DNA of 63,739 nucleotides, filler included, from Octopus bimaculoides (lineage: Eukaryota), in the NCBI RefSeq assembly GCF_001194135.2. It is 9 parts of 9 records of this genome, joined end to end, with 100 filler letters (N's around TTAATTAATTAA, not from the genome) between each part and the next. Parts side by side here need not be neighbours in the genome. Positions count along the whole stretch, not along the records: positions 1 to 15,364 come from NC_068990.1; positions 15,465 to 31,210 come from NC_068988.1; positions 31,311 to 41,543 come from NC_068998.1; positions 41,644 to 47,269 come from NC_068983.1; positions 47,370 to 49,620 come from NC_068984.1; positions 49,721 to 53,472 come from NC_068995.1; positions 53,573 to 60,087 come from NC_068994.1; positions 60,188 to 61,992 come from NW_026388670.1; 1 more part is not named here. One strand, written 5' to 3'. The notes below the pieces were generated by a model that made no database searches, was not told the DNA's origin, and worked only from the letters and a program-made list of their open reading frames with translations. Both the position numbers and the translations under genes were made by a program. Positions 11,137-63,675 of the stretch are shown piece by piece. How positions within the stretch are numbered: the first letter of the stretch is position 1; each line of letters begins with the position of its first letter.

Positions 11137-11185
11137 GTCTTACAGCTGTTTCTGGGAAGATCCAGTACTTCCCTTCATCGGAGAC
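11137..11185 (-). ncRNA. Minimal type I hammerhead-like motif (U4C core variant) in a (TA)n-flanked short element
   Basis: Reverse complement: GTCT-CCGATGA-A-GGGAAG-tactggat-CTTCCC-A-GAAAC-AGCT-GTA-AGAC. 4-bp stem I, 6-bp stem II, palindromic ACAGCTGT helix III. Activity untested. Confidence 0.55.
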
Positions 11186-11929
11186 AGAAAAAATAAAGGA
11201 ATCGATTATTATATCCATAGGCGGATAGTTTTAGTCGGTATACAGCACTTACTCGGTATTACCTGTATCCTCTTGGGTTTGGTTAAATCCAATACCCTCC
11301 TCAACCTTATATATATATATATATATATTTACATATACACACACATACATACATGCATACATACATGCATACATACATATATATATATATATATATATAT
11401 ACACATACATACACACACATGCACACACACACACACATATATATATACTTATACACACAGACACAACAGTGCACAGAGTATATTTTGTCATAGCACAAGC
11501 ATAAGAGAAAGATTGTCATGTCTTAGACAAGACTAAAGAGTCCTCCTAACACTTAATTTAACAGAATATACTGAGTATGACTTATTGTGGCCCCAGGAAT
11601 AGAGAGGATAGAGAATAATGACATGGATAAATGGAGAGAGTGACAGATGAATATCACTACCAAATGCCCAGTGAGAAGTATAAAGTTGAGTTTATGGAGC
11701 ACAGGCAGATCTGATAAGATTGCTTATCTATATGCCTCAAGATAGGTAAGTGAGCTAGAGTAATAAGTGAGAGGGGGGAAATGGTGTATTGTAGGGGATT
11801 CTTGTGGAATCTCTAGCATGAGCAGAAGCCCACTAGTATACTTAATCACACTTGTAATGTATTACAGTGAAAGTCATAAGAGAAGGGTAATTGTGAGATA
11901 AGGAATTCTGAGCAAGAGTTATAAAGAAA

Positions 11930-12985
11930 AGGCTAATAGGGAAATGGATGACTTTAAAAGAGTATCCCTAAACCTCTGCAGCTGACATTCTTGACCATCC
12001 AAGTAGACAGTACCAGGATTTGCCTGATGAAAATAAAAATGAAATCCAGTGCCTTCTTTACATGAAGAATAAGTTTATCAATATTGTCAGAAGTGACTCA
12101 AACTTATTGTCAAAGGCTCAAGCTGTGCACTCATGTAGAAGGGTACACCAGGAAAAAAAAATTAAGGATTATGAAAAATAACTGGGTTCAAGAATGGGTT
12201 AAGAAGACAGAAATGTTTGTTAACACAAATAATACAAAAAAACCCTGTTTTTAAAGACTGTACGATTTTATGTCCCAAATTATGAGGGTGTTTTAGCTAT
12301 TCTTACAGCAAATGGAAGTATACATATCACAGGCATAGAAGCTATATGTGAATGACCAATGGGCTGAAAACTTTCCTTTCAAAATATTCTGTAAAAAAGA
12401 AGAAACTATGAGGCATAAATGAGAAATCTATTGACAATCTGGGGCAGATGCTCATCAATCTGGCTCTTAGTGAAGTTCCTAACTCTTTTGAGATCAATTC
12501 TGTTATAAGGTTACTGTACTGTAACAAGGCACCAGGTGTTGACTTAATTATTGCTGAATATCCCATAGGGTGGTGAAATGCACACTGAAAAACTAACTGT
12601 GCTGTCTACTTTTGTGTGATCAGTGGGCAACACTTCACAGGAGTTCAAGTATGTTACAATTATTCAGTTTTATATACAAGAACAAAGGTGATAGTTATAC
12701 AAAAGCTAGAAGCATTTTCCTCATGTAGAATGATGGCAAAATCTTGGTGAGAATATTCCTAAATTACATCAATAACCATCTCACCACCTACAATCATCTG
12801 CATGAAAGCTAATGTGGTTTCCTTGGTGAAATGGTCATTGCTAATATGGTAAAACAATGCCAGAAGAAGAGTGTAGAGCAGGTACAATACCTGAATATAA
12901 GTATTTTGTTAACACAAAAATGCATTTGAAAAAGTGTTGTGGGAGTTGTTAAAAAAGTTAAGAATACCTGCAAAATTTAGGTGTA
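11930..12985 (+). mobile_element. Degenerate RTE-clade LINE (linker plus N-terminal RT)
   Basis: ADILDHPSRQYQDLPDENKNEIQCLL..., WAENF, NKAPGVDLIIAE (KAPG at 12526), LYKNKGD..GKILVRIFLN..HES*CGF..KNAFEKVLWELLKKLRIPAKF, with stops and frameshifts. Confidence 0.85.
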
Positions 12986-14072
12986 CAGGTATGTACATGA
13001 ATATGATGAGCTAATTTTGTGATAACATACATTAAACAATGGTGAAAATTTGAAATCCCTAATATCCAAAAGCAGCAAAAAGTGTTGTGCATTAGTACCA
13101 ATCACTTAGAGTAAATACAGAGTCTAGTTACACACACTGTCACACAGATATACACACACATGCTCTCATATATATATATATATATATATATATATTATTA
13201 ATTTTTCTATATGTGATAGTGGATTTTCATCGATGAGTTCTTGAAAATTGGTTATTTTCCCTAAAACTATATATANNNNNNNNNNTATATATATATATAT
13301 ATATAAAGTAGTTGTATATTATATGTAAATGTATCTATTTATATACTCATATATACTGGTATATATACGTACACATGTATGCATTCTTCTTCCAGTAAAG
13401 TACAGAATAAGAAAATTTTTGCTTAAAATATTGTACCTAAGGATAAAATTTCAAATACACTATTTCAATTTAGAAAATATAAGCTTTTATGAAAACTAAA
13501 AATGTTATTACTTCTATTTGCTATTATTTGTTACTTCTATTAAAAATTAAAAATAACTCAAAATATTTTTTGCACTTTAAGAAAATTATTTGCACTTTAA
13601 AAAAATTAATAATTAGAAATTTGAAAATATGTTATAAAAGATAATAGTAGTACATAATTAGTGCAATAAATAGAATAATAGAAAATTTAGTTATACATTG
13701 CATTAAAATCTACCTATAACAACAAATTCATTGTAAAATTTGCTTCAGCTCCTGCCTAAGTTATTGCCAAGTCTTCACATTTTCAGTCTTGACCTAATGC
13801 CTATTTTTTAGATAATGAATTTGCCTACCATGTATACTATTCTACTAAGCGTTTCAATATGTATGTGTGTGTGTATATATGTGTATATATATGTATGCAT
13901 ATGTATATATATATGTGTGTGTATATATATATATATATATAGATAGATAGATTGATAGATAGATAGATATGTATATGTTTGTATACATGTATATATATAT
14001 ATGTGTGCATATATATGTGTGTATGTGTATATATATATATATATATATATATATGATGATGACGATGATGAT

Positions 14073-62529: not shown

Positions 62530-62862
62530 TGATTTTCTGTCTTCATGCTTTGCTCTCTTCATGTTCCTTGCATGGCTCTTCTCCTGCACCTGATATAGTC
62601 CAATCAAGAGTTTTGATGGCACATCTGGTGTATAAGAGAATTTGACATCGCTGCCCTAAACTGTGTCTCATTTCGAGCCATTGGTTCGTCTGGTATCGTG
62701 GAGAGGAAAGCGTCGAGTTTTGTCTTGAAGACCTCCACATCCGTGTCTTGCAGGTCTCTCAAATGTTTTGGCAGAGCATTGAAGAGCTGAGGTTCTCTGA
62801 AACCGAGGCTGCTGCAGTATTTTGTTCTTATGTGAGATGCAGTGGATGGCACCTTTGGCACC
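62530..62862 (-). mobile_element. CR1-clade LINE extreme 3-prime end
   Basis: [60 protein letters not shown]...[10 protein letters not shown]. Confidence 0.85.
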
Positions 62863-63469
62863 ATATATATATACACATACATATATATAGATACACATAT
62901 ATATATATATGTATCTATATACAAATGTATACAAACATATACACATATATATATACAAACATATACTCATATATATCCACATATACATATATACACAAAT
63001 ATATATATATATATATATATATATATATATATATATACATACATATATACATATCTATATACATATATGTACATATATGTATATACACATATATTGTAAA
63101 GGTTGCAAGATGCAACGAAAATTTTTAAAACAAAAAAAAATAAGTGGAAATTTTACCGGTGAGTGTGTTAAATTATAAGGCACCAAAAGAGAATGTCTCT
63201 CCCCAGACACAACAGTATTTATATATACACATATATATATACACATATATACACACATACGCACACATATATACACACATATATACATAGATATACATAC
63301 ATGCACACATATATATACATACATATATACACACATGCATATATATATATATACATACATATATATACACATACATATACATATATACACATACATATAT
63401 ATATATATATATACATATATATAAACACTTATATTCATATATATAGATATACACACGTATATACATACA

Positions 63470-63675
63470 TATAGTTGGAATTTATAAAAAACAAAAGATG
63501 TGGACAGGTGTGTAAACCACAAACAGGTGTATTAGATCAATGCTCAGGTAGGTAAGAAAGTCTTTTACATTTTGAGCCAACACTCTTCAACAGGAAAGAA
63601 CATGAGAAAATAGACAGGGAGAATGAAAAAAGAAAACTTTAGTAGCTAGTGGTCAATCATGGCAATAGCTGATGT
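63470..63675 (-). mobile_element. Short (TA)n-embedded element homologous to 49860-50065, with a decayed hammerhead-like motif
   Basis: Reverse complement: gccatgattgaccactag...tctttcCTGTTGAAGAGtgttgGCTCaaaatGTAaaagactttct...ctaatacacctg. Confidence 0.7.

What the first reader, a model, noticed from the sequence alone, without database searches (positions are those of the whole stretch)
11137..63599. Dispersed, (TA)n-associated short elements carrying minimal hammerhead-ribozyme cores (possible non-autonomous PLE/retrozyme-like system)
Seen in sequence: at least five loci carry CNGNNGA-A-stem II-GAAA-palindromic helix III motifs. They are 11137-11185(-), 42897-42944(+) with its mirror near 42718-42765, 48349-48384(+) with mirror 48213-48248, 49932-49965(+) and 63561-63599(-). 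A degenerate one lies in the 15.7 kb repeat. They form three variant classes (CCGAUGA, CUGAAGA, CUGUUGA), all with an extra A after A9. Stem II changes sequence but keeps pairing between 11.1 kb (GGGAAG/CTTCCC) and 42.9 kb (GGGATAT/ATATCCC), i.e. covariation. The 11.2 and 42.5 kb hosts share flanking sequence (gtaatNcNgagtaagtgct). Most hosts sit in or next to (TA)n. Established: minimal type I hammerheads with palindromic helix III occur in Penelope-like element pLTRs and cleave as dimers. Inference: these are short non-coding PLE derivatives mobilised in trans, possibly microsatellite-targeting. PLE RT (1350-2030) and GIY-YIG (7432-7745) fossils are present in the same window.
Basis: partly seen in the sequence, partly recalled or inferred. 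Interest (0 to 1): 0.75.

Follow-up and report, generated by a model that had tools for sequence, protein, structure and literature searches.

The report
Hammerhead tails of truncated Penelope retrotransposons
The ribozyme-shaped motifs are real and occur in hundreds to thousands of copies, but they are the cut-off tail ends of ordinary Penelope-like jumping genes that prefer TA repeats, a known arrangement, and their self-cutting is only predicted; the one oddity is a family whose ribozyme carries a roughly 100-base extra stem.

Summary
All seven named motifs are at the stated places. Five pass a strict hammerhead descriptor, against 0.24 per shuffled window; two are mutated. Exact patterns find 780 (CCGAUGA), 386 (CUGAAGA) and 1314 (CUGUUGA) copies in G000, reversed patterns 0. 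Longer copies run upstream into GIY-YIG endonuclease ORFs of Penelope-like elements (PLEs): Hydra clade (11.1, 42.9 and 15.7 kb families), a Neptune-like family (49.9, 63.6 kb) and an unplaced EN+ family (48.3 kb). 5' ends are scattered and often inverted, so the window copies are 5'-truncated PLE 3' ends, not retrozymes. The extra nucleotide, palindromic helix III, mirror pairs and (TA)n targeting are all published. Two residues remain. The 15.7 kb 'degenerate' motif is half of a Hydra hammerhead with a structured 100-105 nt helix II. The CUGUUGA family has a preferred 5' boundary (19 of 43), which leaves a short trans-mobilised form open. Cleavage is untested. The scan reached this reading before on other DNA.

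The parts
11067..11235 (-). 5'-truncated 3' end of Hydra-clade PLE family A1 (about -54 to +116 relative to core C3), ending at (TA)n
   Evidence: 96% identical to A1 copies L111/L031; L111 carries RT and EN ORFs, stop 794 nt upstream of the core
11137..11185 (-). Minimal type I hammerhead, core CCGAUGA (U4C), 6-bp helix II flanked by A.A, 8-nt palindromic helix III; predicted cut between 11141 and 11140
   Evidence: the dimer forms helices I and III in cofolding
11232..11308 (+). Inverted copy of the A1 3' tail (+177 onward) joined to the truncated 5' end; holds the flank motif shared with 42.5 kb; followed by (TA)n
   Evidence: 96% to the L031 tail; sequence
15510..15859 (-). Left arm of an inverted pair of Hydra family D 3' ends; starts inside helix II (+34), has an internal deletion and the 3' tail, ends at (TA)n
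15858..16111 (+). Right arm of the family D pair (+57 to +315); carries only the 3' half of the hammerhead, the CUGAAGA half is missing
   Evidence: 93% to L211; full motif in other copies
42483..42870 (-). Left arm of an inverted pair, Hydra family A2 3' end (-109 to +273) with tail, ending at (TA)n; hammerhead at 42718-42765 with broken helix III palindrome
   Evidence: A2 joins a Hydra RT-EN ORF about 1.5 kb upstream in L404, L239 and L241
42875..43017 (+). Right arm, A2 3' end (-26 to +118); hammerhead at 42897-42944, core CCGAUGA, 7-bp helix II; predicted cut after 42940
48080..48294 (-). Left arm of an inverted pair, family B PLE 3' end (-49 to +165); hammerhead at 48213-48248
   Evidence: L105 is a near-full copy with RT, EN and hammerhead, stop 299 nt upstream of the core
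48292..48482 (+). Right arm, family B 3' end (-60 to +130); hammerhead at 48349-48384, canonical core CUGAAGA, 4-nt palindromic helix III, helix I extendable through an internal loop; predicted cut after 48381
49756..50073 (+). Neptune-like family C 3' end (-180 to +137); hammerhead at 49932-49965, core CUGUUGA (A6U); predicted cut after 49962
   Evidence: 78% to L131; EN ORF ends about 600 nt upstream in L140, L144 and L149
63458..63663 (-). Second family C 3' end (-76 to +136); hammerhead at 63561-63599 with G12A and non-palindromic helix III, predicted inactive

Best explanation
The motifs are minimal hammerhead-ribozyme sequences in the 3' ends (pseudo-LTRs) of at least five autonomous Penelope-like retrotransposon families, and the window copies are short pieces of those 3' ends, likely left by reverse transcription that began at a nicked AT-rich or (TA)n site and stopped early, often folding back into an inverted pair. 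Shown: each family continues into a GIY-YIG endonuclease ORF (with RT in A1, A2 and B; RT thumb in D); 3' ends cluster while 5' ends scatter; inversions are common; 3' ends abut (TA)n. Inferred from published PLE biology: in an intact tandem element, two hammerheads would pair through the palindromic helix III and slowly cut the long precursor RNA to unit length. The ribozyme is kept by selection on active master elements, not on the dispersed copies. Solitary copies lack a partner in cis, and mirror copies would be sequestered in a long hairpin, so most would be inert.
For: ORF linkage: A1 in L111 (RT and EN with the CxCX5C linker); A2 in L404, L239 and L241; D in L403/L306, L286 and L293; B in L105, L103 and L109; C in L140, L144 and L149. 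Pfam GIY-YIG hits for the B, A2 and C endonucleases (E 2e-4, 8e-3 and 2e-3, all below the curated cut-off). Homologs of the B RT carry RVT_1, one of them also GIY-YIG. 5' ends: 99 family B copies picked on sequence downstream of the ribozyme run from +21 to beyond -1030; 8 of 99 reach 400 nt or more into the ORF and 48 of 99 have an inverted copy upstream. A (n=30) and D (n=30) also scatter. Selection on masters: A1 and A2 are 72-75% alike in the ORF and unalignable across their 0.8 and 1.5 kb 3' UTRs, yet 82% alike over the 50-nt hammerhead. (TA)n enrichment. Literature: Cervera and de la Pena 2014 (PMC4209133, abstract through discussion read) report the extra nucleotide, palindromic helix III, opposite-strand pairs 100-700 bp apart, mostly solitary truncated copies, and low dimer-dependent cleavage. 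Craig et al. 2021 (PMC8557442; introduction, Hydra section, passages and supplement part 2 read) report inverted 5'-truncated copies, 3' tails, (TA)n targeting and an octopus Hydra family with a hammerhead.
Against: Class C 5' ends cluster at -62 to -79 (19 of 43, none from -80 to -128), which plain random truncation does not predict. Long copies were found by searching with long queries, so they prove linkage but not frequency. No intact ORF was seen; all are broken. Pfam found no RT domain in any of my RT pieces, and clades rest on motifs, not a tree. Fixed U4C and A6U cores would lower activity (PMC3088659 passages on U4C and A6C), so cleavage may be marginal. 5' junctions show no peak at the predicted cut (3 of 99 within 3 nt). 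RNA reads show no pile-up of ends at the B or D sites, but the libraries are unstranded, about 6% was read and depth is in the tens.
Confidence: 0.88

Rival explanations
1. Some of the short copies, class C above all, are a non-autonomous SINE-like form: a roughly 200-nt pLTR unit transcribed on its own and mobilised in trans by the parent PLE's RT and endonuclease.
For: 19 of 43 class C copies start at -62 to -79, with distinct flanks, often (TA)n. C is the most abundant class (1314 exact hits) and shows no opposite-strand pairs among its 100 listed matches. pLTRs hold promoters, and non-autonomous PLE derivatives are known (PMC8557442 passages; bioRxiv 10.64898/2026.07.22.740005, parts 1-3 read).
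Against: The boundary is a 17-nt zone, not a point, and lies in AT-alternating sequence that could join (TA)n targets by microhomology (inference). The other 24 of 43 copies start elsewhere, up to -330, and the window's 49.9 kb copy starts at -180. A, B and D show no such boundary.
Confidence: 0.2
2. They are non-LTR retrozymes: tandem 170-400 nt repeats that give circular RNAs.
For: Type I hammerheads in short dispersed units; a few same-strand neighbours exist.
Against: Only 3 same-strand pairs within 1 kb among the 400 listed matches, no arrays of three or more, and one of the pairs spans a 10-N gap. The hammerheads are of the minimal PLE type and the units continue into PLE ORFs.
Confidence: 0.04
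3. The motifs are structured protein-binding or priming signals derived from hammerheads that no longer cut, at least in the U4C and A6U families.
For: Fixed core substitutions, low published activity of related variants, no truncation peak at the cut site.
Against: G5, G8, G12, the GAAA box, the NUH triplet, G10.1-C11.1 and the palindromic helix III are all kept across unrelated families. U4C is tolerated in a viroid.
Confidence: 0.15

Closest known systems
Minimal type I hammerheads in metazoan PLE pseudo-LTRs (Cervera and de la Pena 2014, PMC4209133)
   Same: Extra nucleotide between A9 and 10.1, G10.1-C11.1 pair, palindromic helix III, place in the 3' repeat, opposite-strand pairs, mostly solitary truncated copies.
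   Different: Fixed U4C (families A1-A3) and A6U (family C) cores. Family D has a 100-105 nt helix II domain, against 7-8 bp in that paper.
Hydra-clade PLEs, including Hydra-1_Obim (Craig et al. 2021, PMC8557442, Files S1 and S2)
   Same: CxCX5C linker, no CCHH, CxxC and CxH around the conserved E and N, DKT motif, (TA)n targets, hammerhead with a long palindromic helix III and often an extra base on both sides of helix II.
   Different: The hammerheads of A and D differ from the one listed for Hydra-1_Obim. The 3' UTRs are 0.8-1.9 kb, so A2 and D exceed the usual <3 kb length.
Neptune-type EN+ PLEs (Arkhipova 2006, as described in PMC8557442)
   Same: Family C has the CX4CxxC linker and CxxC inside the GIY-YIG, with microsatellite bias.
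   Different: Its RT core was not recovered; Neptune versus Nematis rests on recalled resemblance.
Non-LTR retrozymes (PMC7229834, passages; bioRxiv 10.64898/2026.07.22.740005)
   Same: Type I hammerhead in PLE-related short units.
   Different: No tandem arrays; minimal rather than canonical hammerheads; the units are collinear with PLE 3' UTRs.

Membership tests
PLE minimal type I hammerhead | Core CUGANGA ... GAAA ... NUH | tested here: inconclusive
   Met in B and D; A has U4C and C has A6U as family states. All other core positions are kept.
PLE minimal type I hammerhead | Extra nucleotide after A9 and G10.1-C11.1 pair | tested here: met
   A, B and C; in D the base after A9 is a G that can pair.
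PLE minimal type I hammerhead | Palindromic helix III for dimer folding | tested here: met
   8-nt palindrome in A and D, 4-nt in B and C. The intermolecular helix III is the lowest-energy cofold for intact A1, A2 and D; B and C cofold through helix II instead.
PLE minimal type I hammerhead | Lies in the 3' repeat downstream of an RT-GIY-YIG ORF | tested here: met
   Stop to core: 299 nt (B), 794 (A1), 1913 (D), about 1.5 kb (A2); about 600 nt (C).
PLE minimal type I hammerhead | Self-cleavage | not testable with these tools
   RNA reads gave no usable ends.
Hydra clade (A1, A2, D) | CxCX5C linker; no CCHH; CxxC and CxH around E and N | tested here: met
   L111, L404 and L403 translations.
Hydra clade (A1, A2, D) | DKT motif | tested here: met
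   Seen in A2 (L404); the region was not recovered for A1 or D.
Hydra clade (A1, A2, D) | (TA)n insertion | tested here: met
   14/30 and 11/30 against 2-4% background, plus 7 and 6 copies ending at N gaps.
Hydra clade (A1, A2, D) | RT phylogeny | not tested
   No named reference set was at hand.
Neptune/Nematis-type EN+ PLE (C) | CX2-5CxxC linker plus CxxC within GIY-YIG | tested here: met
   L140; the linker cysteines are decayed in L144.
Neptune/Nematis-type EN+ PLE (B) | CX2-5CxxC linker | tested here: not met
   B has C-x4-C-x7-C, DKG, and CxxC within GIY-YIG: an EN+ PLE of unplaced clade.
Non-LTR retrozyme | Head-to-tail arrays of hammerhead units | tested here: not met
   3 same-strand pairs and no arrays among 400 listed matches; a gapped assembly could collapse arrays.
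Non-LTR retrozyme | Abundant circular RNA | not testable with these tools
   Only fragmented cDNA libraries were available.
Non-autonomous PLE derivative | Own fixed 5' boundary, separate from ORF-bearing copies | tested here: inconclusive
   Not met for A, B and D; class C has a preferred zone.

The most novel reading that the evidence does not exclude
Octopus PLEs have remodelled the hammerhead. Hydra family D keeps an active ribozyme whose helix II has grown into a conserved 100-105 nt multi-segment rod, with intermediate 54-59 nt versions in other families, serving as an RT-binding or regulatory domain. The A6U Neptune-like family has spawned a roughly 200-nt solo-pLTR element that moves in trans.
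Probability: 0.25. Interest if true: 0.5.

Novelty: new member of a known kind. Interest (0 to 1): 0.2.

Why it matters
Mostly it does not: these are more families of a published arrangement. What remains is a natural series of PLE hammerheads in one genome, with fixed core substitutions (U4C, A6U) and helix II domains from 13 to 105 nt. That series could be used to test the open question of what hammerheads do in the PLE cycle and how much activity they need. Long-helix-II hammerheads would be missed by short-loop descriptors such as the 7-17 nt spacer used in PMC8557442.

Tried and rejected
Rfam scan: 329 matches at E up to 10; the 150 shown are microRNA and other small-RNA models, none at its gathering score and none a hammerhead; the other 179 were not shown. 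Repeat finder: swamped by N runs and microsatellites. Window RT/EN fossils as the trans-acting partner: no blastn or tblastx hit to the fetched loci; best protein match E 0.004 over 23 aa; no homolog; profiles no better than shuffles, though one of four sequences in the Neptune profile was out of frame, which weakened it. PLE ORF pieces next to D copies in L217, L163, L168 and L177 were rejected as D's parent because other elements or gaps intervene or the piece lies downstream or on the other strand. Cleavage-site truncation peak: none. RNA: no RNA holder listed. Three raw RNA runs laid on L109 (B and D) gave tens-fold depth from related copies in both directions and no end pile-up at the cut sites, which is uninformative; expression of A and C was not examined. 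Luense et al. 2017 and Arkhipova et al. 2017 were not held; from recall they describe many variant PLE hammerheads and may already cover U4C, A6U or long helix II. Searches for these in print found no description in the held library. One supplement file of PMC4209133 was not searchable, and the bioRxiv supplements were not seen. The ESM Atlas was unavailable.
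Full report
Setting. The window is a pack of 9 separate stretches of an AT-rich animal genome. 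G000 has 2.34 Gb. The closest named protein to one host ORF is from Octopus bimaculoides (84%). The named loci lie on five different stretches, and the 15.7 kb repeat on a sixth, so their closeness in the window is not biological.

Observation. All seven motifs read as described. A strict hammerhead descriptor finds 5 hits in the window against a mean of 0.24 (maximum 2) in 100 locally shuffled windows. The 42718 mirror and the 63561 copy fail it through substitutions in helix III and G12. Exact patterns give 780 hits for CCGAUGA (A), 386 for CUGAAGA (B) and 1314 for CUGUUGA (C), with 0 for each reversed pattern. These are lower bounds because no mismatches were allowed. No hammerhead family appears among the 150 Rfam matches shown of 329.

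What the hosts are. In the first 30 loci of each class, homology ends about 100-270 nt downstream of the core and at variable places upstream. I followed the longest copies upstream with DNA searches and longer fetches. A1 (11.1 kb) joins an RT-EN ORF in L111, with the stop 794 nt upstream. A2 (42.9 kb) joins a related ORF in L404, L239 and L241, about 1.5 kb upstream. Both carry the Hydra marks of Craig et al. 2021 (PMC8557442): CxCX5C linker, no CCHH, CxxC and CxH around E and N, and DKT in L404. B (48.3 kb) joins RT and GIY-YIG in L105, with the stop 299 nt upstream; homologs carry RVT_1, one of them also GIY-YIG. Its linker does not match CX2-5CxxC, so its clade is unplaced. C (49.9 and 63.6 kb) joins an endonuclease with a CX4CxxC linker about 600 nt upstream; it is Neptune-like by recalled resemblance. 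All ORFs seen are broken. These long copies were selected for length, so they show linkage, not frequency.

Truncation or a separate short element? For B I picked copies on sequence downstream of the ribozyme (671 hits; the first 100 listed were fetched and gave 99 distinct copies). Their 5' ends run continuously from +21 to beyond -1030 relative to the predicted cut. Eight of 99 reach 400 nt or more upstream into the ORF (for one of them only the upstream block aligned). Forty-eight of 99 have an inverted copy just upstream, and only 3 of 99 start within 3 nt of the cut, which is no peak. A and D 5' ends also scatter (30 each). Among the 400 matches listed, I count by eye 16 opposite-strand and 3 same-strand pairs within 1 kb and no arrays. 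This fits 5' truncation with inversion, as described for PLEs, and not retrozymes. Against my reading, class C starts at -62 to -79 in 19 of 43 copies not selected for length, with none between -80 and -128. A stall or microhomology zone and a solo-pLTR element both fit this.

(TA)n. The 3' end abuts (TA)4 in 14/30 A, 7/30 B, 18/30 C and 11/30 D copies, against 1-4% background. (TA)n targeting is published for Hydra, including an octopus family, and hypothesised for Neptune.

Selection on the motif. A1 and A2 are 72-75% alike in the ORF and unalignable through most of the 3' UTR, yet 82% alike over the hammerhead. In 24 distinct A rows, 88.5% of cells pair and 3 pairs change on both sides, while slid controls pair 8-61%. 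These rows were mostly picked on the core and the first stem pairs, and they represent about three lineages, one of which breaks pair 18-29, so the covariation is modest. U4C and A6U are master states. Perreault et al. 2011 (PMC3088659, passages) note that U4C lowers activity but is tolerated in a viroid and that A6C is slow. I found no A6U hammerhead in the held library, but the most relevant paper (Luense et al. 2017) was not held.

The 15.7 kb repeat. It belongs to a further Hydra family, D (EN, 1.9 kb UTR and core half in one locus, L403/L306). Full copies have CUGAAGA, then 100-106 nt (28 of 30; the other two have 79 and 90), then GAAA and the 8-nt palindrome (240 exact hits). The insert folds as a bulged rod: median z is -3.3 over 30 copies. 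In 28 aligned copies, 89.6% of cells pair, 3 pairs change on both sides and slid controls pair 22-40%; the two short copies were left out and the outer pairs were fixed by the search pattern. The subfamily closest to the window copy has weaker helices I and II. Both window arms begin inside the insert, so they hold no complete ribozyme. Other families with 54-59 nt helix II domains turned up in passing.

Mechanism. Shown: location, truncation, inversion, target bias and conservation. Inferred from Cervera and de la Pena 2014: tandem hammerheads pair through helix III and cut precursor RNA slowly. Cofolding gives the intermolecular helix III for intact A1, A2 and D, but not as the lowest-energy form for B and C. 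Genomic 3' ends lie well downstream of the cut site, so the templates were either uncut at this site or re-ligated. RNA reads could not test cleavage.

Verdict. These are real, abundant, known-type elements: new families of PLE pLTR hammerheads with a few structural variants. Two earlier notes of this scan on other DNA agree; I consulted them after forming this reading and they are not independent support. Interest 0.2.

Noticed in passing
window 10173-11037: An 865-nt element with inverted ends, flanked by (TA)n, with a decayed mariner-like transposase N-terminus (recalled resemblance) on both arms; it lies directly beside the 11.1 kb hammerhead copy.
   Followed up: partly
L172:2287, L043 (minus strand, about 776 from its end), L168:2281: Further hammerhead families with 54-59 nt helix II domains; the L168 one lies about 280 nt downstream of a Hydra-type endonuclease end.
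   Followed up: partly
L102, L087, L095, L150, L265: Another frequent minimal hammerhead family (core CUGACGA or CUGAAGA, 4-nt palindrome), often in inverted pairs; parent not traced.
   Followed up: no
window 1103-1250: A 148-nt imperfect hairpin repeat, also seen in the L028 flank; no hammerhead core.
   Followed up: no
window 1350-2030 (-) and 7432-7745 (+): Heavily decayed frames with PLE-like RT and GIY-YIG motifs by eye; not confirmed by any search and not matched to the host families.
   Followed up: yes
window 27300-28021, 22401-22595, 58657-59024, 1-280: Inverted-end element, hairpin around a (TA)n core, 184-nt tandem duplication and a roughly 62-nt tandem repeat.
   Followed up: no
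families A, B and D, 3' ends: Two 3' end classes per family (about +110-130 or +250 in A, +125 or +165 in B, +325 or +380-400 in D), that is, an optional tail; at about 130 nt in A it is longer than the 30-40 bp tail described for PLEs.
   Followed up: partly
L083, L163, L087: 3' ends of different PLE families joined directly or nested in one spot, suggesting shared targets or template switching.
   Followed up: no
P0020: A public gene model named 'GATA zinc finger domain-containing protein 14-like' is 84% identical to the A1 Hydra ORF, so it is likely a mis-named transposon.
   Followed up: no
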